This document shows, one piece after another, positions 712-33,193 of a stretch of DNA of 33,193 bases (position 1 is the first letter of the stretch; each line of letters starts with the position of its first letter). The notes under the pieces are model-generated. The model was given only the letters and a program-made list of their open reading frames with translations. It made no database searches and was not told the DNA's origin. This DNA is from Nemertoderma westbladi (lineage: Eukaryota; Animalia; Xenacoelomorpha), in NCBI GenBank assembly GCA_032718475.1, contig JAUCBJ010001410.1:1-33193 (forward strand), written 5' to 3'. The position numbers and the translations under genes are program-made.

Positions 712-1302
712 GCAGACCCCGGACAGCAGCCCCCCAGACAGCAGCCCCCTGGGCAGCCGCCCCCCGGACAGCAGCCCCCCGGACAGCAGCCCCCCGGACA
801 GCAGCCCCCGGATAGCAGCCCCCTGGACATCAGCCCCCGGACAGCCGCCCCCCGGACAGCAGCCCCCCGGAGAGAAGCCCCCCGGACAGCAGCCCCCAAA
901 CAGCAGCCCCCCGGGCAGCCACCCCCCGGACAGCCGCCCCCAGGACAGCAGCCCCCCGGACAGTAGCACCCCGGACAGCAGCCCCACGGAGAGAAGCCCC
1001 CAAGACAGCAGCCCACCAAACAGCAGCCCCCCGGGCAGCCACCCCCCGGACAGCCGCCCCCCGGACAGCTGCCCCCCGGACAGCAGCCCCCCGGGCAGCA
1101 GCCCCCCGGACAGTAGCACCCTGGACAGCAGCCCCACGGACAGCAGCCCCCCGGACAACAGCCCCGCGGGCAGCAGCCGCCCGGACAGCAGACCCCCGGA
1201 CAGCAGCTCCCCGGACAGCAGCCCCCTGGACAGCAGCCCCCGGGCAGCAGACCACCGGACAGCAGTCCCCCGGGCAGCAGCCCCCCAGACAGCAGCCTCC
1301 TA
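712..1302. repeat. 15-bp minisatellite, consensus GGACAGCAGCCCCCC
   Basis: About 39 tandem units read directly. The variant GGAGAGAAGCCCC recurs at 869 and 988, indicating a ~120-bp higher-order duplication. Confidence 0.97.
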
Positions 1303-2587: not shown

Positions 2588-3581
2588 GGCAGTAGCCCCC
2601 TGGACACTAGACAGTACCCCTCTGGGACAGTAGCCCCCTGGACAGTACCCCCTGGGACAGTGGCCTCCTGGATAGTAGTCCCCTGGGCAGTAGCCTCCCG
2701 GACAGTAGCCTCCTGGACAGTACCCCCTGGGACAGTGGCCTCCTGGATAGTAGTCCCCTGGGCAGTAGCCTCCCGGACAGTAGTCCCCTGGACAGTAGTC
2801 CCCTGGACAGTAGCCTCCTGGACAGTAGTCCCCTGGACAGTAGCCTCCCGGACAGTAGTCCCCTGGACAGTAGTCTCCTGGACAGTAGCCTCCCGGACAG
2901 TAGTCCCCTGGACAGTAGTCTCCTGGACAGTAGCCTCCTGGACAGTAGTCTCCTGGGCGGTAGCCTCCTGGACAGTAGTCCCCTGGGCAGTAGCCTCCCG
3001 GACAGTAGCCTCCTGGACAGTACCCCCCCTGGGACAGTAGTCCCCTGGACAGTAGCCTCCTGGACAGTAGTCCCCTGGACAGTAGCCTCCCGGACAGTAG
3101 TCCCCTGGACAGTAGTCTCCTGGACAGTAGCCTCCTGGACAGTAGTCTCCTGGGCGGTAGCCTCCTGGACAGTAGTCCCCTGGGCAGTAGCCTCCCGGAC
3201 AGTAGCCTCCTGGACAGTACCCCCCCTGGGACAGTAGTCCCCTGGACAGTAGCCTCCTGGACAGTCTCCTGGACAGTAGTCCCCTGGACAGTAGCTTCCT
3301 GGACAGTAGTCCCCTGGACAGTAGCCTCCTGGACAGTCTCCTGGACAGTAGCCTCCTGGACAGTAGTCCCCTGGACAGTAGCCTCCTGGACAGTCTCCTG
3401 GACAGTAGTCCCCTGGGCAGTAGCCTCCTGGACAGTAGTCCCCTGGACAGTAGCCTCCTGGACAGTCTCCTGGACAGTAGTCCCCTGGGCAGTAGCCTCC
3501 TGGACAGTAGTCCCCTGGACAGTAGCCTCCTGGACAGTAGTCCTCTGGGCAGTAGCCTCCCGGACAGTAGGCCCCTGGACA
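2588..3581. repeat. 15-bp minisatellite, consensus GGACAGTAG(T/C)C(C/T)CCT, with 12-bp variant units
   Basis: About 1 kb tandem array. A block containing TGGGCGGTAG recurs at 2954 and 3151 (197-bp higher-order repeat). GGACAGTCTCCT 12-mers appear only after ~3260. Confidence 0.97.
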
Positions 3582-3890
3582 GTGTCGTTCTGTTCTGTTA
3601 AGTCCAATTTTAATCGTTAATAACTCGGTCTATCTATCGTGTGGCCTTCGAGAAGCTAAGATAAAAGCAGTTACTGTAATTAGTTAATTAAGTAAAAAAT
3701 ATGTATTTCAACCTGACTTTTAATTGAAATTAATTATTTTATAGTATAAGATTTAAATAATTATACTTAAAAATTATACAGCGGTAGTCCCTATACCCCA
3801 TTCCATTATAGTTTTTAATTAGTTCAAGTGATTTGTTTGCTTATAAAATTTGTTTTTAATTGATCCAAACGTAATTAATTTATTAAAATG
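3582..3890 (+). mobile_element. Internal fragment of the HINE/Helentron-like element at 19971-21259
   Basis: Colinear homology to 20105-20470 (GTCGTTCTG remnant, CGTGTGGCCTTCGAGAAGCTAAGATAA, AGTATAAGATTTAAATAATTATA, TTATAGTTTTTAATTAGTTCAAGTGATTTG). Confidence 0.8.
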
Positions 3891-7342: not shown

Positions 7343-7565
7343 TCGCGTTACTTTTATTGGTAACAAATTACCTATTTCTACAGTAAGCAGTTTTGTTGAA
7401 TTATGAGTATAACGAAAAAATCATTACATTAATAAAAATATATATTTTCAAAAAAAGCTAGTAATCCTATTGCACAATATATTACACAATCTATACTGCC
7501 CCTTTTTTATCTAATGTAGGTCTAATTACAGGAGTGAGTTTGTTTAGAATTTCCAGATAATTATA

Positions 7566-7739
7566 ATGGGTCAACGCATAATTCTTATTTGTTCAGTGTT
7601 TTGTCTAGTCGTTATCACTTCTTGGAGTCAGCCCTTGTACGAGAAGTCCAACGGATATTCGATTCATGAAAACGACGATACGGACAACGTTGTTAGCAAG
7701 CGAAATCGACAACCGGCCCGGTACAGCGGTGCGGCCAGG
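7566..7739 (+). CDS. Secreted peptide precursor, coding exon 1 (signal peptide, acidic propeptide, KR site)
   Basis: MGQRIILICSVFCLVVITSWS|QPLYEKSNGYSIHENDDTDNVVS-KR-NRQPARYSGAAR, then donor AGG|GTTAGT at 7740 (phase 0). An acceptor-like TTTCCAG at 7550-7556 lies just upstream of the ATG. Confidence 0.8.
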
Positions 7740-7984
7740 GTTAGTGATTTACAACGAATTATTGAATTCAGTAATCTAATGATACTTTTATAATAAATGA
7801 TATTTTTGGTTCAAATAGCAGCCAAACAGAGGAGACCTGTAGTGTCTTATAAATATGACCATAAACACAACTCAAGGCTTTGCTCGTAGAAACTATACTA
7901 TTTAATTCCAATTGCCTATTAGGTATAAACGTAGTGGGGGTACATTCAACGCATTGAAACTTCGTCCCCCTCCAGTGAAAATCA

Positions 7985-8330
7985 AAGCAAATAGAAATAA
8001 CAACTATAGTTACTCCATAAAACAAAACTGTAACCTTTTCTCCAGTATTCACTTTAGTTTATTGTCTTGACTAGTGGCTAGATTGACGTGAACATTTAAC
8101 CTGCTCCTTTCCCTTAATTGTTAATTTAACATTGATAGGATATATTAATTCAAACACCCCCCCCCCCCCCCCCCCCCCCCCCTCGTATGTCTCCATAGGG
8201 ACATTGGTACTTTACAGTGGTAGGTAAATATAACCAAAACAATAAACTAAAGTCAATAGCACCCATTACGGTTTTTTGTTTGTATTCACTCAGCAATTAT
8301 TTACATCGATTATTTGTTATTATTTGTGTC
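7985..8330. repeat. Two inverted copies of a dispersed repeat flanking a poly-C tract
   Basis: CTTTAGTTTATTGTCTTG (8052) vs CAAAACAATAAACTAAAG (8235). The same family occurs at 9665-9760 (-), 13530-13675 (+) and 30100-30225 (+), sharing CCACTGTAACCTGCTCCTTTCCCT-like cores. Confidence 0.7.
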
Positions 8331-8691
8331 TCGCTGGCTGTCGTACATAAGGTTATAAACATCAACATACATTATTTAACATAGGCCTACATCTTATTAT
8401 ACTGATTGGAATTAATGTTATAGTGTAGAATAATTATTATATGCAAGATACAGTTGTTGGGTATATTAATACCATCGGAAATTCCTACGCAAATTGAAAC
8501 AAAACCCACGATTAATTCCGTCTAAAGATGAGTTTATCTGCAACTATATTGATATTCCATCAGTTTATCAGCTAATTTATCAGTCAGAGTTTTCTTTATT
8601 ACCTTTAAATATTTTCCATCTCAGCAGCACTGCTGTTCTTGTGCAACATCTTCTGATGTTATTGAATTTATTTAAATTGATTCCTTTATAG

Positions 8692-8727
8692 CAAACCGGC
8701 TGCAGCGCCGCCACATGCGGCAAGTAA
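8692..8727 (+). CDS. Peptide precursor coding exon 2: QTGCSAATCGK* (calcitonin/CGRP/adrenomedullin-like ring)
   Basis: Acceptor TTCCTTTATAG| at 8691 opens a GC-rich island in AT-rich DNA. It is in phase with exon 1 and gives a CX4C ring followed by G-K-stop (amidation signal). Confidence 0.7.
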   Translation, partial: QTGCSAATCGK

Positions 8728-9178
8728 AGCAACTTGTAATTCTAAATACATTTCATATTAAATTCGAAAAAATACATAATTATTCAACATTCTATGTAAA
8801 ATATATTGATTGTTAGTGATTCACTGAAAAGTTGTTTGTTTTTTGTTTGTGTTTATTTGTGGAACTATTGACAATCTAATTATTTTAGAAACTAACAAAT
8901 ATGAATAGTTTATACTACAAGTGTTTCTTATTACTTAGATATCTATAATCTATTAGTAAATGGAGCGCAAATATGAACCCCAGCGGGGGTCGTCTTCTGA
9001 TAAACATTCAGTTATCCACTACTACACCATGGAGGTAGATCTGTATTTCTCTCCGCGTGTAATTATCACCATTGTTGCATTTGATAATTTTAATTTAATT
9101 ATATTAACCAAACATTTTGGAATTAATGACACACTGTTACTAAAATTATGCTAAAATTAGTAAAATATGTAAATAAAG

Positions 9179-9413
9179 TCAGTCATCGATCTGTGGTCGG
9201 TCGAGGTTCGCAAGGTGGAGGGAGCTGCCAAGGTCGGAGTTAAATCGGGGGAGAGCGTAGCAAGTTGAACAGTGGTCTTTGGAGACCGCTTTGTCGTGGC
9301 AGAGCCAGCAAATGCAGTCTTCAGTGGGCCTCCAGCATTTTGGGGACTGGCACCGTATTTGATAATTTTCCCGATATATTACTTTGGTGAAAATCCAAAG
9401 TAAATGTGAATAT
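9179..9413 (-). other. Candidate Cys-rich terminal exon of unknown gene
   Basis: After acceptor TTTATATTTCCAG| an open frame reads YSHLLWIFTKVIYRENYQIRCQSPKCWRPTEDCICWLCHDKAVSKDHCSTCYALPRFNSDLGSSLHLANLDRPQIDD*. GC content is above the flanks. Confidence 0.3.
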
Positions 9414-10086
9414 CTGGAAATATAAATTTATTGTCGCAGATGGGCTGCCGGGGAGGGGAGGGGGGGAAGCAAGACCGAAAACCATTCAAAATGAGGAAGT
9501 TAAAAGAACGAAACACAACAATTAATATTTTGTTTCGTTTCCAATCCCTGGTAATTGTAATTATAAACATTATAAACATTATAAACATTATAAACATCAC
9601 GCTTTTAAATTAATTGCTAATTGTCTATTTATCACAACTCATATGTAGCACCGATATACTTTTGAATTAATATATCCTTTCAATTTTGATAAAGTAAAAG
9701 GAGCAGTTTACAGTGGCAGACCTGCAGTACGTTATTATTACCAAAAAATAAATGCCTAAATTTCACCTGGAGACAGATGAAATTTCATAACATTGAAAGT
9801 CAACCCAACCCGTAATTTTCTAACCCAACAGAACTTAGTTCGTTCCCCTTTACACAACAATTTTTGTTATTTAGGTTCAGGATTGAGTATAAAATGAAGG
9901 ATAAGATTTAGTGCCAAATATTTAAACAATAATCACATAAATATTGGTTTTAATTATTTACTCTATTTAATAATCCTAATTTCACAAAGAGAAAATGTCA
10001 TTTTTTTACCACTACAACCAGAGGCGATACAATTAAACCGGTTAATGAACTTTACTATGTCTTGTAAGCCATACACACAATGGATC

Positions 10087-10445
10087 AGTTGTCAAAAATC
10101 CATGTTAAACCTTGGAAGGAACAATTCTGTTCATTAAATTCATTGATGCAGTCGACGAAACCATCGCAATTGTATAAGTCGAGGCGAGGTAACACTGGTC
10201 GCATCTAGTCGCGCATTCTTTGCAGGTCTCGGAACTGAGTTGATCGCCGCCTTCGGGTTCGGTCGAACGCTCGACAATCCGTGGTTGGTTCCATCGTAGA
10301 CCCATTCCTGCGGCCCGCACGGGTACTGTAACCCACGTCGTAACACCCGAAGTCCTCCGCCGTAGAGAAATCCGCGTTGCATCCCGTCTCATCCGAGTTG
10401 TCGTCCTGGCCTGGTACGAGTCGCACAGATTCGGACGCCTTTGGC
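10087..10445 (-). pseudogene. Frameshifted relic of tandem LDL-receptor class A (LDLa) repeats
   Basis: Pieces in different frames: NLCDSYQ / QDDNSDETGC, FGCYDVG / CGPQEWVYDGTNH, CKECATRCDQCYLAS / YNCDGFVDCINEFNEQNC. These resemble the LDLa consensus CxPxxWxCDGxxDCxDxSDExxC. Confidence 0.7.
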
Positions 10446-11043: not shown

Positions 11044-12030
11044 CGCAGCTTGGCTTGGTCTAGTGGTGACATTCCTGGGTTTTCAATTAGGAAGTTCTGC
11101 TTCGCTGCCTAGATGGGGCCCTAGCCCAACCCTGGCTTTCATCCTTCGCTGGTCTATAAATGGGAACCTAGGCAACTTTACTGTGGAAGATCAGATAACC
11201 CATCATGGTGGTGAACAGGCATTCCTTTAGGAAACAAAGTGGAAGGGTTTACTGTGGAAGATCGCCCATGGTGGTGAACAGGCATTCATTTAGGAAACAT
11301 AGTGGAAGGGTTTACTGTGGAAGATCAACAGTGGTGGTGAACAGGTATTGCTTTAGGAAACAGAGTGGAAGGGTTTACTGTTGAAGATCACCCATCGTGG
11401 TGAACAGGTATTGCTTTAGGAAACAGAGTGGAAGGGTTTACTGTTGAAGATCACCCATCGTGGTGAACAGGCATTCCTAGGAAACAGAGTGGATGGGTTT
11501 ACTGTGGAAGATCACCCATGGTGTTGAACACGCATTGCTTTAGGAAACAAAGTGGAAGGGTTTAATGTGGAAGATCTCCTATGGTGGTGAACAGGCATTC
11601 CTTTAGGAAACACAGGTGGAAGGGTTTACTGTGGGAGATCACTCGTGGTTGTGAACAGACATTCCTTTAGGAAACATAGTGGAAGGGTTTACTGTGGAAG
11701 ATCAACAGTGGTGGTGAACAGTCATTCCTTTAGGAAAACGGGTGGAAGGGTTTACTGTGGGAGATCACCCATGGTGGTGAACAGGCATTCCTCTAGGAAA
11801 CAGAGTGGAAGAGTTTAATGTGGAAGATCTCCTAGGGTGGTGAACAGGCATTCCTTTAGGAAACATAGTGGAAGGGTTTACTGTGGAAGATCAACAGTGG
11901 TGGTGGACAGGCATTCCTTTAGGAAACAGAGTGGAAGGGTTTACTGTCGGAGATCAGGATCACCCATGGTGGTGAACGGGGATTCCGTGACCTAACGAGC
12001 CTAAAAGATTCTCCCATTCACATTATCATT
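11044..12030 (+). mobile_element. tRNA-derived SINE, copy 1, with 13 internal 63-bp units
   Basis: A-box-like TGGTCTAGTGG, core CCCAACCCTGGCTTTCATCCTTC...ATAAATGGGAACC, tandem array, then 3' TAACGAGCCTAAA..ATTCTCCCATTCA. Homologous to 24176 and 32888. Confidence 0.88.
11175..11985 (+). repeat. 63-bp tandem array GGCATTC(A/C)TTTAGGAAACAGAGTGGAAGGGTTTACTGTGGAAGATCACCCATGGTGGTGAACA
   Basis: 13 units counted by the TTACTGTGG motif and its variants. No unique spacers. Confidence 0.95.
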
Positions 12031-13095: not shown

Positions 13096-13778
13096 TTTCG
13101 ATCCGTATTTTCCCCTACCCTCTCTACCTTTTGTTTGGTTTGTATATTATGGTAGAATTTCCAGCCATAAATTTGTTAAACCACTAAAATTATTTTTTGG
13201 ACCTTGGGATTTTTCTCATTTGTTAACAAAAACTTTTGGCACTTTTGTCACATTTTTTTCGAATAAGTCACTACACTGTTATAACTGTTTTTAGAATGCA
13301 CATCAAATTGATTTAAAAGGAATAACTTTTTCTGATGTTGTAAATGGTTAATACTTAACCCTGCTAAGTTTTTGCAATATAAAATATTCAATATAAAAAT
13401 AAACAGCCTCACAAAATCTTTTTTTTTATATCGAACTGGGGCAAAAGTGCTTAAGTAATAAAGTTTGTGTTCAAGCATTTCCCGAAACTGGATGCAATAA
13501 AAATTCATCCCTCGCCATGGGAAATTGGACGCAAATAACAGCAGATTACTCCCAAAAATAAAACTGTAACTTGTTCTATTGTGTTTAGTTTATTGTTTTG
13601 GTTAAAATAACGTGCCACTGTAACCTGCTCCTTTCCCTAAATTGAAAATTTAATATTGAGGCGGGATATTAATTTGCCAAGGCGGGTTTTGCGCCCAGTT
13701 TCCCCCCCTGTCTCAAAATTTGTGAAATGTATTGAATGATTCAGGCTGCATAAAATATTTAATTTTATGCAGCCTAAT

Positions 13779-14174: not shown

Positions 14175-14594
14175 TTAGGCAGCTTTCTTGTAGATTCGCG
14201 TGCAAGTGACTCCCTTACACTGCAAAGTGATGGTCATCTTATCTCCCTCGATCTCCCGTACAGATGTTGTGTAATCTTCCTCGCCCTCCGGTCCTTTCTG
14301 CGACTCAACTAGTTTCTCCCCGTCCCATTTCTGAAGCGTTTCAACGTTTTTACGTCCGTCCAGAGTCTCAGCAACGGTGTAAGCAACTCCGGGAACGAAA
14401 GTGACGCTTTTATTTTTAAATGTTGATTTCGAGTTGATTGTGATGTTGTCGCCGCTTGCGGAAATTTCGTGCGTCGACTTGAGGTTGGCGGCGATTTTTC
14501 GAGTTGCAATGCCAACGCCTAATGCTACCATGTAGGGTTCAAAGTTATCGCTACCACTGAGATCCCATTTGCCGAGGTATTTTTCTGTTGCCAT
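14175..14594 (-). CDS. FABP: Intracellular fatty-acid/lipid-binding protein (iLBP/FABP), intronless, paralog 1, 139 aa
   Basis: GKWDL..SDNFEPYMVALGVGIATRK, STFKN..VTF..G, ETLDGRK and C-terminal VREI..DKMTITL..KGVTCTRIYKK with the R-x-Y carboxylate-binding motif. Intact ORF, ACCATGG start. Confidence 0.96.
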   Translation of the reverse strand: MATEKYLGKWDLSGSDNFEPYMVALGVGIATRKIAANLKSTHEISASGDNITINSKSTFKNKSVTFVPGVAYTVAETLDGRKNVETLQKWDGEKLVESQKGPEGEEDYTTSVREIEGDKMTITLQCKGVTCTRIYKKAA

Positions 14595-14745: not shown

Positions 14746-15261
14746 CATTTTCTTGGATTAACATGTTACTAAGAAAGGAGTGGTCACATAATTAGCATAG
14801 CTATTGATAGATAACAATATCGAACTCTTGTGTGTGTGTCATATTTTTTTATTATTATTATAGAGAATAGAGGAAGAGGTTGACGTTATGATAAGATTAT
14901 TAGTTGACTTTCAACCTAATAAAATATGTTGAATAATTGTCTGACTTTGTTTGACGAATGCTAATTAATGGAGTGAACTGTCCATTTGAGGGGTGTAACG
15001 TTCACCAGTTGTTTGAGATGAATCTTCCTTATCTAAAAACTGTGTGGATATCTGAATTTAGTTATCTAAATTACTAATCTAAAACGATAAATCAATATAG
15101 TTAATTAATAGGTGAGTATATACGGGTAGAAATTTAATAATGGGGAAATAGAAACAAAAAATGGGCGGAATTTCGGGGTAGAGACCCCGGTATTTTACGT
15201 GTTCAGGTCACCAGGAGATGAGTTAACATGCTAGCAGTACTCATGGGAGGACATGATTGGC

Positions 15262-15677
15262 TCTAACTGCTGAGGACACCAAAAATACATGGATGGCACA
15301 CATAAGAATTCTACCTTTCGCTCACTCAGTATGAAGTACAATGCACACATCTCCAACCACACAATGTATAAAACATTGGAAGTGTCTCATTAGTCCCTCT
15401 AAGCTTGATACTTGAACAGAGCCGCCTCCCCTTTGCAGGACATTGATTTCGCCGTCAAGACTATCCTGCGCACAATCTTGTGCTTTGGCAGCCCGCTGGA
15501 GATGATAAGCATGGTGGTCAGCCCATGACTTTCTTGAGACGCCTCCTAGGGGACACTGGCCTTGACGATGCGTATAATATTGCGAAAGTCGTGGGGTACA
15601 GGGAGTTGTGGTGGTGCAATTTTGTCGATTAGACGGAGTAGTATACGTAATCCAAGCTGTATTGCAGCATACCGATT
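15262..15677 (+). mobile_element. Older, degenerate RTE family B copy
   Basis: Colinear with 22180-22590 (ACTGCTGAGGACACCAAA, TACAATGCACACATCTCCAACCA, CAGCCCATGACTTTCTTGAGACGC) with many indels. Confidence 0.85.
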
Positions 15678-15727
15678 GTGAAATGTATGGTGGCTGCACA
15701 ATTTCGATGTTAAGTCGGAATGGCAAT

Positions 15728-16340
15728 CTCTACTACTAGGATCGGCATGCTGCAATGCAGCTGCATTTTTAAGAATGCTGTGCCGGCTTGTCGACAAGAT
15801 TGCGCCGCCACAACTCCATATCCCCCATTACTTTCGCGAGATTATCCGCATCTTCAAGGCCAGTGTCCTTTAAGATGAGTCTCAATAAAGTCATGGGCTG
15901 TCCACCATGCTTATTCACTCCATGAGGCTGCCAAAGCATCAGATTATACACTGGCTGGTCCTCACGGCGAAAGCAATGTCCTGCAAAGCGGAGGCGAATT
16001 TGTTCTAGTGTCAAGCTTAGGGGAACCAATGAGACACCTCCTATGTTATATAGTGTCTGGTTGGAGATGTGTGCATTGTACTTGACATAGTGAACCCGGC
16101 GTAGCATTCTTGTTAATGTGCCATCCAGAGATTTGGTGTCCTCAGCAGTTAGAGCCCAGCACGGACTCCCATAGAGGAGTACTGGAACTACTGCTGCTCT
16201 AAATAATCGGACCATAAGTTTCCGATTAATTCTATGTGACTTCCAAATCCTGGAAAGCCTATTAAAGGCTGCCCATGCCTTTCCCTTAGGTATGTATTCG
16301 AAGGTCCTTCACCTGACTTCCCGATCCATGCATCCATAGG
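15728..16340 (-). mobile_element. 5'-truncated RTE family B copy
   Basis: KGKAW...IWKS...RLFRAAVVPVLLYGSPCWALT...RLRFAGHCFR...DKPAQHS*, followed by the 3' UTR and (TAG)n tail. Confidence 0.92.
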
Positions 16341-18297: not shown

Positions 18298-18717
18298 TTA
18301 GGCAGCTTTCTTGTAGATTCGCGTGCAAGTGACTCCCTTACACTGCAACGTGATGGTCATCTTATTTCCCTCGATCTCCCGTACAGATGTTGTGTAATCT
18401 TCCTCGCCCTCCGGTCCTTTCTGCGACTCAACTAGTTTCTCCCCGTCCCATTTCTGAAGCGTTTCAACGTTTTTACGTCCGTCCAGAGTCTCAGCAACGG
18501 TGTAAGCAACTCCGGGAACGAAAGTGACGCTTTTACATTTAAACGTTGATTTCGTATTTATCGTCATGTTGTCGCCGTTTGCCGAAATTTCGTGGGTCGA
18601 TCTGAGTCTGGAGGCGATTTTTCGAGTTGCCATGCCAACGCCTAACGCTGCCATGTAGGGTTCAAACTTATCGCTGCCACTGAGATCCCATTTGCCGACG
18701 TATTTCTCTGTTGCCAT
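18298..18717 (-). CDS. FABP: Intracellular fatty-acid-binding protein, intronless, paralog 2, 139 aa
   Basis: Intact 420-nt ORF starting MATEKYVGKW, with 12 amino-acid differences from paralog 1 by manual alignment. Confidence 0.93.
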   Translation of the reverse strand: MATEKYVGKWDLSGSDKFEPYMAALGVGMATRKIASRLRSTHEISANGDNMTINTKSTFKCKSVTFVPGVAYTVAETLDGRKNVETLQKWDGEKLVESQKGPEGEEDYTTSVREIEGNKMTITLQCKGVTCTRIYKKAA

Positions 18718-21259: not shown

Positions 21260-21589
21260 ATTAGTGGAAGATCTACAGTAATAGTCACTCAACATTTTGT
21301 TATATCAATAATAGTCGCGTCCAATCCACACTCTCAAATTCAATCAACCCCGCCAAAGCTTTACTCTGTGGAACTTTTACTTACGTTTAATCATAGATTT
21401 TAATTAATTTATGTTCACCTTACTAATAATCCTGGTCAATTTTACTGCTGTTATAATAATACTGTATACAATATAAGTTTGTACACACACACGGTCTGTT
21501 CCTCACGGCGCGGCGGAAGGGTTGCCACAAATGGAGAAAATCCTGGATTCACACTACAAGAAGTTAGTAGATATCCGGCAACTACTGTA

Positions 21590-22950
21590 CATTCACAGAC
21601 ACCGACTTTGCGGATGACATCGCCCTGCTCTCTAATACGCTAGCAGATGCACAACTTCTACTAAATAAAGTGGAGAGGGCTGCTATGGAGGTTGGATTGC
21701 ATATAAATGCTACAAAGACCGAATTCATGACCTTTAATGTTGATGGAAACTTGACAACCATTGATAATAATCAACTAAGGAAGGTCGACGACTTCCAGTA
21801 CCTTGGATCATGGATAGAGAGTAGCAAAAAGGACATAGAAGTTAGGAAAGCAAAGGCTTGGGTAGCTCTATCAAAAATGGATACCATCTGGAAATCAGAT
21901 CTCCCCAGGCACCTGAAGACTAAGTTCTTTCGAGCCACAGTGGAAAGTGTATTTTTATACGGGGGTGAGACCTGGACACTGACTAAATCACTTGAACAAC
22001 GAATTGATGGTTGCTACACAAGACTACTAAGGGTAGCGGTACGTAAGGGAAAGGCATGGGCAGCCTTGAATAGGCTTTCCAGGATTTGGAAGTCACCGAG
22101 AATTAATCGGAAACTTAAGGTCCGATTATTTAGAGCAGCAGTAGTTCCAGTACTCCTCTATGGGAGTCCATGCTGGGCTCTGACTGCTGAGGACACCAAA
22201 ACTCTGGATGGCACATTCACAAGAATGCTACGCCGGGTTCATTGTGTCAAGTACAATGCACACATCTCCAACCAGACACTATATAACATTGGAGGCGTCT
22301 CATTGGTTCCCCCAAGCTTGACACTAGAACAATATCGCCTCCGCTTTGCAGGACATTGCTTTCGCCGTGAGGACCAGCCAGTGCATAATCTTGTACTTTG
22401 GCAGCCTCATGGAGTGAATAAGCATGGTGGACAGCCCATGACTTTCTTGAGACGCATCTTAAAGGACACTGGCCGTAAAGATGCGGATGATCTAGCAAAT
22501 GTCATGGGTGATAGGGAGTTGTGGCGGTGCAATTTTGTCGATAAGCCGGCACAGCATTCTTAAAAATGCAGCTGCAATGCAGCATGCCGATCCTAGTACT
22601 AAGGGTAGCCCTAAACATCAGCTGGAGAAAACACATGACAAACGCCGAGCGTTATGGTACAATACCACCTGTATCAACCACCCTCCGTGAACGCAGATTA
22701 AGATTTAGTGGGCACTGCTGGCGAAGACGCAGGCAAAGACGAGGTCATACCAGATCTACTTCTCTGACAACCAACTCATGGAAAGCGTAGTCGTGGACGA
22801 CCGGCCATAACATAAATAGATCAACTTGAAAGGGATACTGAATTTGGGAGAAACCAAATTGCGACAACTATGGAGAATCGGGAAGCCTGGAAGGATCTCA
22901 TTTCCACTGTCCGAGTTCGCTCGCTCTAGTAGTAGTTGTAGTAGTAGTAC
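21590..22950 (+). mobile_element. 5'-truncated RTE-clade LINE family A (host), interrupted by a family B insertion
   Basis: DTDFADDIALL RT catalytic motif at ~21600, GLHINATKTEFM, FQYLGSWI, LYGGETWTL. Resumes at 22610 (LNISWRKHMTN..RRLRFSGHCWR) and ends in a (TAG)n tail. Confidence 0.93.
22038..22596 (+). mobile_element. RTE family B copy nested in RTE family A, 13-bp TSD
   Basis: Flanked by the direct repeat TACTAAGGGTAGC (22025-22037 and 22597-22609). Closely similar to the reverse complement of 15728-16290. Confidence 0.95.
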
Positions 22951-24175: not shown

Positions 24176-25262
24176 CAGCAGCTTTGTGTAGTGGTTGCAT
24201 TCCTTGGCTTCCAATTAGGAATCCGTGGTTCGATCCCTAGATGGGGCAGCACTGTTTTGGGCACAGTGCTTTAAATGCTGCAGCCTAACCCAACCCTGGC
24301 TTTCATCCTTCAGTGGTGATAAATGGGAACCAAGGCATTCATTTAGCAAACAGTGTGGGAGAGTTACTGTGGAAGAATACCCATGGTGGAGAACAGGCAT
24401 TCATTTAGGAAACAGTGTGGAAGAGTTACTGTGGAAGATCACCCATGGTGGTGAACAGGCATTCATTTAGGGAACAGAGTGGAGGGTTTACTGTGGAAGA
24501 TCACCCATGGCGGTGAACAGGTATTCATTTAGGAAACAGAGTGGAAGGGTTTACTGTGGAAGATCACCCATGGCAGTGAACAGGCATTCATTTAGGAAAC
24601 GGAGTGGAAGGGTTTACTGTGGAAGATCACCCATGGCGGTGAACAGGCATTCAATTAGGAAACAGTGTGGAAGAGTTACTGTGGAAGATCGCCCATGGTG
24701 GTGAACAGGCATTCATTTAGGAAACAGAGTGGAAGGGTTTACTGTGGAAGATCACCCATGGCGGTGAACAGGCATTCTTTTAGGAAACAGTGTGGAAGAG
24801 TTTGTGGAAGATCACCCATGGCGGTGAACAGGCATTCATTTAGGAAACAGAGTGGAGGGGTTTACTGTGGAAGATCACCCATGTCAGTGAACAGGCATTC
24901 ATTTAGGAAACGGAGTGGAAGGGTTTACTGTGGAAGATCGCCCATGGTGGTGAACAGGCATTCATTTAGGAAACAGAGTGGAAGGGTTACTGTAGAAGAT
25001 CACCCATGTTGGTGAACATGTATTCCTTTAGGAAGCAGAGTGGAAGGGTTTACTGTGGAAGATCACCCATGGTGGTGAACATGCATTCCTTTAGGAAGCA
25101 GAGTGAAAGGGTTTACTGTGGAAGATCACCCATGGCGGTGAACAGGCATTCCTTTAGGAAACAGAGTAGAAGGGTTTACTGTGGAAGATAACCCATGGTG
25201 GTGAACAGGCATTCCTTGGCTTAACGAGCCTAAACGATATTCCCGTTCATTAATTACATTTA
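24176..25262 (+). mobile_element. tRNA-derived SINE, copy 2, with 14 internal 63-bp units
   Basis: A-box-like TGTGTAGTGG, B box GGTTCGATCCC, hairpin AGCACTGT/ACAGTGCT, core GGCTTTCATCCTTCAGTGGTGATAAATGGGAACC, array at 24334-25216, then the shared 3' end. Confidence 0.9.
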
Positions 25263-29852: not shown

Positions 29853-31389
29853 TATTTAGTATACAATCACTCCACAATTATATTTCTATCTTTTTACCTA
29901 TGAATTTTACTCGCCAATAGGGTTTCGTACTTTTTAACTAAGTTTCTAAATATAATATCAACTTGGACGATCCATTTGATTCGATTAAATTAAATCACCT
30001 TTAATCCCCTGGTTTTAACATATGCAAAAGTAGTACAGAGTGTACAGAGGATGGGGAATTTCTACGCAATCAAAATTCAACCATCTTCAAGGGAAAATCA
30101 ACTCAAATAACAACAGATTACCATCAAAAATTAAACTGTTGACTTTCATTTAATGTTTTGGTTAGAATAATGTGCCACTGTAACCTGATCCTTTCCCTTA
30201 TCTGACAATTAACATTGTTAATTCACCGTGATGTGATTTATGCCAATCCCCGTCTGGTCCAACTATCATAAGTACCGGATGTACAGCTATTAATGCGATG
30301 CAAAATTATCCAGTTTAACTTGATATTCTGATTGCGTACCAATTCTAGAGTTGCTTTCAAGATACAGTAATAATATCTGACTTTCTCGGTTACTAAATCA
30401 AATATCAACGGAAGTGGATTGTCGGATAAGTTATTAAGTGTTGCACTAAGAGAGTACGAATTGTAATGACCCTAAACAGCGTGAGTCCAAACGACTCCAA
30501 GTGAGTCGATTGTTTCACCGATAGTACACCCTTGTGTTGATACATTCCTGAACCAACAACGAAACAACAAGAAAGAAAAAGAATCAACAACACCCAAGTA
30601 TGTGGTGTTGTGTATATATCTATTTCAGGCTAACTTTAATCTAATCCCATTTGTTTATAATCTCCTCAGAGGAATTCGTCTGCCGTTCTTTCACAATTAT
30701 CGCACTATTATTTTCATGATGACACATTATTCCTCTTTTGAAATGTCCCCATTTCCTAGCCCCATAGGCCTCCATCTCACTCCCTCTGCTCCATTTTACT
30801 ATCCATCTTCCTGCCCTCTCAGTATTTCTTTGACCAAACACATTTTTTGTCTCTCATCAATTGTTCCTAAACATCACGCCGGATCATCCACCCCCTATAG
30901 TAGTTTGCTTACTATTGGTACAATGTCTTAGATGATGTCTCTTACAAGTTACAAGGTCATATTGAGAGCGGTTTGATTGGCGCTAGATTGGGCTTTACTA
31001 ATCTCAAGATCATTCATAATATTCATCACTCTCTGTTGGCACCGGTTCAACCTGATTACCTAATGTTTCCAAATCAATTGAGAATCTATCCCAACCTATC
31101 AAAGATGCACAATGATATTAGTGTTCATGAAGTTGTCTCTCTCCATCGGTGAAACGTTAACCCCAGCATATTCCCCATCTGGAGTCAACATGACAAGAAC
31201 AACCAGCACCGTCTTTCTGATTCTTTTATTTATTACTTCTTATGTTTTTATATTCCTGTCTCCCTGATTTCCTTTCTAGTTTATCCCATCCTCCTTTCTC
31301 ACCCTGACTGACCCATCCTGGAGGCTGTGGTATATATATCCCACTCCTTGAGTAGTCTCTATTCCTTCCCCACTCTCATTCCTTCCCCA

Positions 31390-32480: not shown

Positions 32481-32642
32481 CCTTGCATGCAGAAGCAGCC
32501 ATGCAAGAAAACCTCCGAGAAGACCTTGAAATGTAAATGTCAACTTTCTGGGCAAAATAAATGCTGGGCGAAGAACTCCTTTATGGACGCAACATGCGTT
32601 TTTGTAGCTCCACCATACGGAGTTGAATTCTACTCGGCCTGA
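32481..32642 (+). other. Candidate terminal coding exon (frame ambiguous)
   Basis: Strong acceptor TTTTCCTTTTCTAG|. Phase 0 reads PCMQKQPCKKTSEKTLKCKCQLSGQNKCWAKNSFMDATCVFVAPPYGVEFYSA* (6 Cys). Phase 1 reads xLHAEAAMQENLREDLEM*. Confidence 0.4.
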
Positions 32643-32887
32643 ATAGTTGACTTAAACCTCCATTCTTGTAACTAAATATGGATATTATTATTTAATTAAA
32701 TATTATTTTCAATTAAGAACATGTCATTTATGATATGGTCCATTGATTAAATGTGGTGGTTTTTGTCGCAACGTAATTTCCTTTAGTTTCTGGGCAGAAT
32801 ATTAATATTAATTAACTCTAACAGATCTCATCTGATATGGCTCTGTAGAAATTCACCCAGGTGGAATGTTTATATAAAATGAAAGTA

Positions 32888-33126
32888 AATTAATGAATGG
32901 GAGATTCTTTTTTTAGGCTCGTTATAAGCCAATGAATGCCTGTCCACCACCATGGGTGATCTGTTTCCCAAGTTGCCTTGGTTCCCATTTATCGACCAGT
33001 TAAGGATGAAAGCCAGGGTTGGGCTAGGCTGCAGTATTTAAAGCACTGCGCCAAAACAGTGCTGCCCCATCTAGGGATCGAACCTGTGCCTCCTGATTGG
33101 AAGCCCAGGTATGCCACCACTAGACT
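32888..33126 (-). mobile_element. tRNA-derived SINE, copy 3, without array expansion
   Basis: The reverse complement has the same head, B box, hairpin, core and 3' end as the copy at 24176, but only one shortened unit, GGCAACTTGGGAAACAGATCACCCATGGTGGTGGACAGGCATTC. Confidence 0.92.
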
Positions 33127-33193
33127 AATTATTTAAGTAAAATTATGAAACATAGGTAAGTTGTATTGAAGGGTTATCTGTCTCTCCATCTTA

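What the first reader, a model, noticed from the sequence alone, without database searches (positions are those of the whole stretch)
7566..8727. Hidden two-exon peptide-hormone precursor in register with adrenomedullin 1-21
Seen: splicing 7739|GT...AG|8692 gives a 69-aa precursor with a signal peptide, acidic spacer, KR, then NRQPARYSGAARQTGCSAATC-G-K-stop. Known: human adrenomedullin starts after KR with YRQSMNNFQGLRSFGCRFGTC, and the CGRP and amylin rings are CDTATC and CNTATC. Ungapped comparison gives identity at R2, Q3, R12, G15, C16, T20 and C21 and the same CX4C ring. Inference: this is a calcitonin/CGRP/adrenomedullin-family relative in an apparently invertebrate genome, ending in an amide right after the ring and lacking the ~30-residue receptor-binding tail. 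It could be a ring-only peptide (21-mer, or pGlu-TGCSAATC-amide after monobasic cleavage). Seven identities in 21 residues could still be convergence.
Basis: partly seen in the sequence, partly recalled or inferred. Interest (0 to 1): 0.85.

Follow-up and report, generated by a model that had tools for sequence, protein, structure and literature searches.

The report
Undescribed ring-ended amidated neuropeptide gene
Two short coding stretches in an invertebrate animal's DNA likely splice into a small secreted precursor predicted to release an amidated peptide that ends in a six-residue cysteine ring; it matched nothing in the databases and catalogues searched, and its likeness to human adrenomedullin is likely coincidence because the helix and tail that define that hormone family are missing.

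Summary
The sequence claim holds. Splicing 7739|GT..AG|8692 gives a 69-residue frame: signal peptide, acidic spacer, Lys-Arg, 21 residues ending in a CX4C ring, Gly-Lys-stop. Both splice sites sit at the sharpest GC steps of the window outside homopolymer runs, and a Cys-pair + amide-signal + stop exon arose in 4 of 3,000 shuffles. No RNA evidence could be obtained.

The adrenomedullin reading is weak. The 7 of 21 identities are real, but two are the cysteines that prompted the comparison; the other five have P about 0.006 for one comparison and 0.06-0.47 for the best of 10-100. The helix and amidated tail that define the calcitonin family are absent, and CGRP fragments without the tail were inactive at the CGRP receptor (PMC13196087). 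No homologue was found.

Best reading: an undescribed, lineage-specific neuropeptide precursor that likely yields an amidated ring-ended peptide for a GPCR. A tail-less calcitonin offshoot (0.18) and a CCAP-type peptide (0.12) remain open.

The parts
7566..7739 (+). First coding exon, 58 codons: signal peptide, acidic spacer, Lys-Arg, first 12 residues of the predicted mature peptide
   Evidence: Open frame from ATG with A at -3 and G at +4, like the neighbouring FABP starts; GC 0.48/0.43/0.52 by codon position against 0.27 upstream and 0.33 in the intron
7566..7628 (+). Predicted signal peptide, residues 1-21 (cleavage after 18, 19 or 21 fits the small-residue rule; after 21 exposes Gln)
   Evidence: Hydropathy above 3 for 9-residue windows starting at residues 5-9, negative from residue 17; -3/-1 rule check; aligns with engineered signal peptides in PDB constructs. 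SignalP not available
7629..7697 (+). Acidic spacer, residues 22-44, net charge -4
7698..7703 (+). Lys-Arg, predicted prohormone-convertase site
   Evidence: cleavage inferred from general neuropeptide processing rules
7740..8691 (+). Predicted GT-AG intron, 952 nt, phase 0, falling between Arg12 and Gln13 of the predicted mature peptide; holds a dispersed repeat and a C26 run
   Evidence: branch-like CTGAT 8653 and TTGAT 8677; not shown in RNA
8692..8727 (+). Second coding exon: nine residues with Cys at codons 8701-8703 and 8716-8718 (C-S-A-A-T-C ring), then Gly-Lys (amidation signal) and TAA
   Evidence: The 33-nt GC peak (0.70) starts at the acceptor and ends at the stop; only strict hit among 539 acceptors
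8728..8862 (+). Likely 3' UTR and 3'-end signals: 21% GC, ATTAAA at 8757, AATACA at 8745 and 8771, U/GU-rich tract at 8831-8862
   Evidence: the tract is the top-scoring 30-nt window on the + strand by a score I devised after seeing it
7500..7565 (+). Possible 5' UTR part of the first coding exon, with acceptor-like sites before 7520, 7532 and 7557 (an upstream non-coding exon is inferred, not located)
   Evidence: Acceptor scores at the 96th, 92nd and 84th percentile of window AG sites

Best explanation
This stretch holds an open two-part reading frame that likely splices into a 69-residue neuropeptide precursor of a family not yet described, predicted to release an amidated peptide ending in a six-residue disulfide ring that likely signals through a G-protein-coupled receptor. 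Shown by the sequence: start codon, hydrophobic leader, acidic spacer, Lys-Arg, two cysteines four residues apart, Gly-Lys-stop, and splice signals at the compositional edges. Inferred from standard prohormone processing: the leader is removed in the ER, the cysteines pair, a convertase cuts after Lys-Arg, carboxypeptidase trims the last Lys and the amidating enzyme turns Gly into an amide on the last Cys, giving a 21-mer (MH+ about 2166.00). Further cutting at the single Arg12, exactly where the intron lies, would give a pyroglutamyl nonapeptide (MH+ about 821.29) encoded wholly by exon 2. Because the ring is terminal and no helix follows, the receptor is more likely rhodopsin-type (as for CCAP or vasotocin) than the calcitonin-type class B receptor. 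The adrenomedullin likeness is read as convergence of small residues around a CX4C ring.
For: Gene model: (see observation check). Precursor grammar; published xenacoelomorph precursors often end Gly-Lys-stop. Single-Arg cleavage with a second basic residue 3-6 positions upstream was seen by mass spectrometry in a nemertean (PMC8557429 passage); Arg6 is six residues before Arg12. No family assignment: no Pfam match for exon 1, no homologue among proteins of 31-102 or 103-2000 residues, none in the whole published xenacoelomorph precursor list (PMC6188537 supplement parts 2-5) or the Xenoturbella list. Against the calcitonin family: helix and tail absent, while 7 of 7 xenacoelomorph calcitonins carry Leu after the ring and a 20-25-residue tail ending Ser-Pro-Gly-Lys/Arg (counted by eye); CGRP1-17 and CGRP1-24 gave no cAMP response at the CGRP receptor (PMC13196087). 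Acoels are reported to carry several lineage-specific precursors, some with cysteine pairs.
Against: No transcript, peptide, orthologue or receptor was seen. Splice sites are good but not the best by a generic matrix of my own: donor 97th percentile, acceptor 92nd, with 7 higher-scoring acceptors inside the intron and a higher-scoring donor at 7728. A codon-usage test trained on the two FABP genes did not favour exon 1 (-9.98 bits) and was unremarkable for exon 2 (61 of 910 intron windows scored as high). The Lys-stop would also arise by reading into a phase-2 donor at 8723 (92nd percentile). Homologue searches used exon 1 only and need shared exact words, and this animal's lineage is poorly covered (its FABP has no listed relative above 51% identity), so 'no family' is weakly tested. 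Five extra identities in exact register with adrenomedullin are unlikely for a single comparison (P 0.003-0.015). The receptor class is an inference from peptide shape only.
Confidence: 0.55

Rival explanations
1. A tail-less offshoot of the calcitonin/CGRP/adrenomedullin family: a calcitonin paralogue that lost helix and tail, kept the ring with Thr before the second Cys, and acts on a class B receptor or a new target.
For: 7 of 21 identities in register with human adrenomedullin. Precursor plan signal-spacer-Lys-Arg-ring peptide-Gly-Lys-stop matches xenacoelomorph calcitonins; 6 of 7 have Thr before the second Cys and 2 of 7 have CX4C. Starfish calcitonin has an N-terminal extension, Gly-Cys-Ser at the ring start and Gly after the ring (PMC6002491). 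Calcitonin is reported, unpublished, in one acoel (PMC13551398).
Against: Ring position, helix and tail all fail the family definition. No remnant of a tail behind the stop: 21% GC and stops in frame. Ring-plus-helix CGRP fragments were inactive. Best-of-many chance 0.06-0.47 at a 6.5% match rate. Calcitonin-type receptors were not found in seven acoel transcriptomes, though present in nemertodermatids (PMC6188537); the host's taxon is not settled.
Confidence: 0.18
2. A divergent CCAP/neuropeptide-S-type (vasotocin-superfamily) ligand: the exon-2 nonapeptide with an amide on its last cysteine is the missing ligand of xenacoelomorph CCAP-type receptors.
For: CCAP is a nonapeptide amidated on its final Cys (PMC4422128); with one gap its ring shares Cys, Ala, Thr, Cys with this one (by eye). 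CCAP precursors lack neurophysin. CCAP-type receptors were found in acoels with no ligand listed (PMC6188537) and the system is reported for Xenoturbella (PMC11521371).
Against: The ring is CX4C against CX5C in arthropod CCAP; both phenylalanines and the Asn-Gly/Asn-Ala motif highlighted for the family are absent; Thr-Gly occurs but before the ring, not inside it. No profile test was possible.
Confidence: 0.12
3. Exon 2 is an internal 32-nt exon: the donor AA|GTAAAG at 8723 splices on to a third exon that carries a helix and tail, making an ordinary full-length calcitonin-type peptide; the apparent Lys-stop is intron read-through.
For: A phase-2 donor AA|GTAA always reads Lys-stop; the site scores at the 92nd percentile and its GC step (0.47) cannot be told from that of the stop. 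Notes on this genome report very large introns (unchecked).
Against: Of 1,259 downstream AG sites, 5 give a frame ending Pro/Phe/Tyr-Gly-Lys/Arg 12-42 residues on; none ends Pro-Gly-Lys/Arg, three lie antisense to an LDLa-like coding remnant, and all have modest pyrimidine tracts. The donor lacks both G at -1 and G at +5. A U/GU-rich tract and ATTAAA follow the stop. Echinoderm calcitonins sit each in one exon (PMC12638048).
Confidence: 0.06
4. The gene model is wrong in its second half or is not a gene: exon 1 splices from another donor (7728, 7720) or to another acceptor (8199, 8625/8628, 10226), or the pieces are chance.
For: Donor 7728 and several acceptors outscore the proposed pair on a generic matrix. 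The join 7728-8199 also ends Gly-Arg-stop.
Against: GC steps at 7728 and 7720 rank 242 and 1,016 of 1,936 against 3 for 7739. The 8199 candidate lies in a repeat found again at 13553-13623 and 30136-30183; 10226 lies antisense to an LDLa-like remnant. Shuffle rate 4 of 3,000.
Confidence: 0.05
5. A secreted defence or prey-capture peptide rather than a nerve signal: acidic spacer masking a cationic mature peptide with a terminal ring, as in frog-skin peptide precursors (recalled, not checked).
For: Spacer charge -4, mature 21-mer +3. Hormone-mimicking toxins, including tick adrenomedullin, are known (PMC13311285 passages).
Against: The 21-mer is hydrophilic (GRAVY -0.8), unlike membrane-active peptides. 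The gene is single-copy in the window. An intron inside the peptide and low identity do not fit a recent transfer from a vertebrate.
Confidence: 0.04

Closest known systems
Human adrenomedullin 1-21 (sequence in PMC2233874, passages read) and the calcitonin/CGRP/amylin family (PMC6283891, PMC6002491, PMC6544337, passages read)
   Same: CX4C ring at positions 16-21 of the peptide, Gly before the first and Thr before the second Cys, 7 of 21 identities; single-copy secreted precursor; amidation
   Different: No helix and no 20-30-residue tail; amide sits on the ring cysteine; peptide split by an intron; 69-residue precursor
Xenacoelomorph calcitonin-like precursors (7 sequences, PMC6188537 supplement parts 2, 4, 5 read)
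   Same: Signal, spacer, dibasic site, ring peptide, Gly-Lys/Arg at the very end; CX4C in 2 of 7; Thr before second Cys in 6 of 7
   Different: All 7 have Leu after the ring and a 20-25-residue tail ending Ser-Pro-amide; their ring starts 0-2 residues after the dibasic site, here 15
Crustacean cardioactive peptide, CCAP / NPS / NG-peptide family (PMC4422128, passages read)
   Same: Nonapeptide-sized ring peptide amidated on the final Cys; no neurophysin; Ala and Thr inside the ring
   Different: CX4C against CX5C; no Phe residues; no Asn-Gly/Asn-Ala; precursor stops right after the amide signal
Vasotocin/oxytocin-type peptides (xenacoelomorph precursors in PMC6188537 supplement)
   Same: CX4C ring, amidated nonapeptide size
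   Different: Peptide is not next to the signal peptide, has no Pro-X-Gly tail and no neurophysin
Unassigned acoel cysteine-pair precursor candidates (Cmac_321.1, Cmac_844.1, Ipul_11125.1, Ipul_701.1 in PMC6188537 supplement)
   Same: Small secreted precursors with ring peptides at or near the C-terminus, no known family
   Different: Rings of 8-10 internal residues and no visible sequence match (by eye)

Membership tests
Neuropeptide/peptide-hormone precursor (general kind) | N-terminal signal peptide | tested here: met
   Hydropathy and -3/-1 rule; SignalP not run
Neuropeptide/peptide-hormone precursor (general kind) | Dibasic cleavage site and Gly-basic amidation signal | tested here: met
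   Lys-Arg at 45-46; Gly-Lys-stop, conditional on the splice
Neuropeptide/peptide-hormone precursor (general kind) | Spliced transcript and processed peptide in neurons or gland cells | not testable with these tools
   No run could be laid on the region; no peptidomics
Calcitonin/CGRP/adrenomedullin/amylin | Disulfide ring of 6-7 residues with Thr before the second Cys | tested here: met
   C-S-A-A-T-C; ring spacing 4-5 in deuterostomes
Calcitonin/CGRP/adrenomedullin/amylin | Ring N-terminal, followed by an amphipathic helix | tested here: not met
   Gly-Lys-stop follows the ring; no tail exon found among 1,259 downstream AG sites in the window; definition
Calcitonin/CGRP/adrenomedullin/amylin | C-terminal receptor-binding tail ending Pro-amide (calcitonins) or aromatic amide | tested here: not met
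   Amide falls on Cys21
Calcitonin/CGRP/adrenomedullin/amylin | Match to the Pfam family profile | tested here: inconclusive
   Exon 1 alone has no Pfam match; exon 2 is too short to scan and the spliced product was not scanned
Calcitonin/CGRP/adrenomedullin/amylin | Activation of a CTR/CLR-type class B GPCR | not testable with these tools
   Needs receptor assay; tail-less CGRP fragments were inactive in PMC13196087
Adrenomedullin subfamily | Identity to adrenomedullin beyond chance | tested here: inconclusive
   5 of 19 non-Cys identities: P 0.003-0.015 single, 0.03-0.77 best of 10-100 over the three match rates tried (match rates assumed)
CCAP/NPS/NG peptide | Disulfide ring with amide at or just after the last Cys, no neurophysin (protostome type) | tested here: met
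CCAP/NPS/NG peptide | Asn-Gly (or Asn-Ala) motif and conserved Phe residues | tested here: not met
   Ser-Ala in place of Asn-Ala, no Phe
CCAP/NPS/NG peptide | Activation of a CCAP/NPS-type receptor | not testable with these tools
   Needs receptor assay
Vasopressin/oxytocin (vasotocin) | Peptide directly after the signal peptide, Pro-X-Gly-amide tail, neurophysin domain | tested here: not met
   against the precursors

The most novel reading that the evidence does not exclude
A calcitonin/adrenomedullin-family hormone reduced to its activation ring: an early-branching bilaterian makes a natural tail-less, ring-ended agonist that switches on a class B GPCR without the receptor-binding tail that the two-domain model requires, and its N-terminal extension preserves an adrenomedullin-like state older than vertebrates.
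Probability: 0.1. Interest if true: 0.85.

Novelty: new member of a known kind. Interest (0 to 1): 0.4.

Why it matters
As it stands it adds an undescribed single-copy ring-peptide precursor of a kind that repeat-based and similarity-based neuropeptide surveys tend to miss, with exact masses that can be looked for. If the host is a xenacoelomorph (a lead from unchecked notes), it bears on the open question whether these animals lost conserved peptide systems or hold them in unrecognisable form: one synthetic 9-mer and one 21-mer tested on the animal's calcitonin-type and CCAP-type receptors would settle the family. A positive on a class B receptor would be a natural exception to the two-domain binding model; a positive on the CCAP-type receptor would supply a ligand not listed in the 2018 survey.

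Tried and rejected
No whole genome is held for this window. Sequencing runs: no RNA holder listed; this says nothing about expression. Protein homologue searches with exon 1, near and longer lengths: no candidate; with the FABP: 5 candidates, none at E 1e-10 or better. Metagenome scans: 454 pattern matches, none confirmed; exact 24-base exon-2 probe, 0 matches. Pfam on exon 1: none; on residues 22-58 one weak NOP5NT hit, E 0.13, rejected. PDB on exon 1: 13 weak hits, the top two to engineered signal-peptide/tag leaders. ESM Atlas on exon 1 and on residues 22-58: all scores under 0.9; many rows are hormone precursors (PDH, DH31, NPY/PP, PrRP, GnRH, gastrin, NPS) with no agreement on a family; leads only. 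The NPY-like look of the Arg-Gln-Pro-Ala-Arg-Tyr stretch was dropped: Ser, not Gly, follows Tyr. Rfam gathering scan of the window: 0. No second copy of either exon in the window. A DNA likeness between the end of exon 1 and exon 2 was reached by 271 of 5,000 shuffles, not significant. Codon-usage test inconclusive. FABP search for taxon: 894 proteins at E 0.001 or better, best 150 listed at 27-51% identity, unnamed, so no placement. Paper searches: three short motifs of the peptide gave 15 papers, 14 listed, none on neuropeptides by title; truncated invertebrate calcitonin and ring-only adrenomedullin activity gave nothing relevant by title and abstract start. Intron-phase data for calcitonin genes were not found in the passages read. 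No fold or complex prediction was run: a 9-21-residue peptide without alignment or receptor would not inform. The spliced precursor was not sent to any database search, so those negatives cover exon 1 only.

Full report
What is there. The window is AT-rich animal DNA with retroelement remnants, tandem repeats and two intronless fatty-acid-binding-protein genes. At 7566 an ATG in good context opens a frame with a hydrophobic leader, an acidic stretch and Lys-Arg.

Is it more than chance. Composition marks both exons independently of the protein reading. The GC-rich end of exon 1 stops at the 7739 donor (step ranks 3 of 1,936 GT sites; the rival donors 7728 and 7720 rank 242 and 1,016), and a 33-base GC peak begins at the 8692 acceptor (rank 3 of 1,834 AG sites; the two higher ones are at poly-G runs) and ends at the stop (rank 6 of 1,912 stop triplets). 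Among 539 pyrimidine-rich acceptors on both strands, read in three phases, only this one gives a short frame with a cysteine pair, Gly-Lys/Arg and stop; 4 of 3,000 shuffles of the following 5 kb give one. That pattern was chosen after the fact; the amide signal alone arises in 1,062 of 3,000 shuffles. Behind the stop the DNA falls to 21% GC, with ATTAAA at 8757 and a U/GU-rich tract at 8831-8862 that tops the + strand on a post hoc score. Results against: on a generic splice matrix built from recalled frequencies the donor is at the 97th and the acceptor at the 92nd percentile, with 7 better acceptors inside the intron, and a codon-usage test from the two FABP genes was inconclusive. Competing joins were followed up: the acceptor at 8199, which also gives Gly-Arg-stop from donor 7728, lies in a dispersed repeat; the strongest acceptor, 10226, lies antisense to a broken LDLa-like frame. 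I put the two-exon, terminal-exon model at about 0.85-0.9; it has not been seen in RNA.

The bases at 8722-8729 read AA|GTAAAG, a possible phase-2 donor, and any such donor reads Lys-stop when translated through. If used, a third exon could add a calcitonin-like tail. Of 1,259 downstream AG sites, 5 gave a frame with a Pro/Phe/Tyr-Gly-basic ending at a fitting distance; none ends Pro-Gly-basic and three sit in the antisense LDLa-like remnant (a looser listing over 424 acceptors is mostly tandem-repeat frames). An exon beyond the window cannot be excluded.

The adrenomedullin comparison. Against the sequence printed in PMC2233874 (passages) the seven identities are right. Two are the cysteines that prompted the match. 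Five of the other 19 has binomial probability 0.003-0.015 for assumed match rates of 5.5-8%, and 0.06, 0.17 and 0.47 for the best of 10, 30 and 100 comparators at 6.5%. That is suggestive, not decisive. The family is defined by an N-terminal ring, an amphipathic helix and an amidated C-terminus (PMC6283891, PMC6002491, PMC12638048, PMC6544337; passages); the C-terminal part binds the receptor ectodomain and the N-terminal part activates it, and CGRP1-17 and CGRP1-24, which keep ring and helix, produced no cAMP response (PMC13196087; passages). Here the ring is terminal and nothing follows. It therefore fails two defining features and should not be filed in the family.

Host and published catalogues. 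I could not place the animal: its FABP has no listed relative above 51% identity among unnamed representatives. Unchecked notes on other pieces of this genome point to a xenacoelomorph worm, one saying acoel and one citing a Nemertoderma transcript. I therefore read the full precursor list of PMC6188537 (supplement parts 2-5; text searches) and the Xenoturbella list of PMC11521371 (supplement 1, both parts): no entry matches by eye or by motif search. All 7 xenacoelomorph calcitonins have Leu after the ring and a 20-25-residue tail ending Ser-Pro-amide; 2 have a CX4C ring and 6 have Thr before the second Cys, so that ring type needs no link to vertebrate adrenomedullin. The same paper found no calcitonin precursor or receptor in seven acoels but did find CCAP-type receptors there (passages and section 8); a 2026 review mentions an unpublished acoel calcitonin (PMC13551398, parts 1-2 of 4), whose sequence I could not see. 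CCAP is a nonapeptide amidated on its last cysteine (PMC4422128, passages), which fits the ending here, but its phenylalanines and Asn-Gly/Ala motif are missing.

How it most likely works. Shown: the layout of the frame. Inferred from standard processing: signal removal (most plausibly after residue 21), disulfide formation, cleavage after Lys-Arg, trimming of the last Lys and amidation of Cys21, giving a hydrophilic 21-mer of net charge +3. The intron falls exactly between Arg12 and Gln13, so exon 2 encodes the would-be pyroglutamyl nonapeptide as a unit; single-Arg cleavage with another basic residue 3-6 positions upstream has been seen in a nemertean (PMC8557429, passage). A short, ring-ended, amidated peptide is the shape of ligand that rhodopsin-type GPCRs take (CCAP, vasotocin), so I favour that class over class B. 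I give 0.55 to a lineage-specific family, 0.18 to a tail-less calcitonin offshoot, 0.12 to a CCAP-type ligand, 0.06 to a hidden tail exon, 0.05 to a wrong model and 0.04 to a defence peptide.

Novelty. Notes on a placozoan and on corals describe precursors of similar build (unchecked). It is an apparently undescribed member of a known kind of gene. The striking claim, a ring-only calcitonin/adrenomedullin relative, is not excluded but is unlikely, and is cheap to test with two synthetic peptides. Verdict: real candidate gene, family label not earned; interest 0.4.

Noticed in passing
window 14175-14594 (-) and 18298-18717 (-): Two intact, intronless FABP-family genes (139 aa each) in tandem, about 90% alike in DNA, differing at 10 synonymous and 12 non-synonymous codons; animal FABP genes usually have introns (recalled). 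No listed relative above 51% identity.
   Followed up: partly
window 10085-10445 (-): GC-rich remnant with LDL-receptor class A-like motifs spread over shifted frames and an in-frame stop (Pfam Ldl_recept_a E 0.033 on one piece); pseudogene fragment or assembly error.
   Followed up: partly
window 32481-32643 (+): Acceptor-like site followed by a GC-raised stretch with a 53-codon cysteine-rich frame and AT-rich DNA behind it; may be a terminal exon of another gene; no Pfam match.
   Followed up: partly
window 21571-22563 (+), 15235-16308, 1478-1880: Several remnants of a non-LTR retroelement reverse transcriptase (RVT_1, DUF6451); the 15235-16184 region is an imperfect inverted pair of such remnants.
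   Followed up: partly
window 11204-11986 and 24333-25214: The same 63-base tandem repeat at two places, each with a similar GC-rich lead-in that recurs inverted at 32974-33128; likely a minisatellite-bearing mobile element.
   Followed up: no
window 717-1297 and 2625-3583: Two related 15-base GC-rich tandem arrays (39 and 64 copies) with long open frames on both strands.
   Followed up: no
window 7995-8282: Dispersed repeat inside the predicted intron, with a short inverted pair (8046-8069 / 8235-8258) and copies at 13533-13674 and 30066-30220.
   Followed up: partly
window 9176-9355: Unique GC-rich patch about 450 bases behind the peptide gene, open in more than one frame, unexplained.
   Followed up: no
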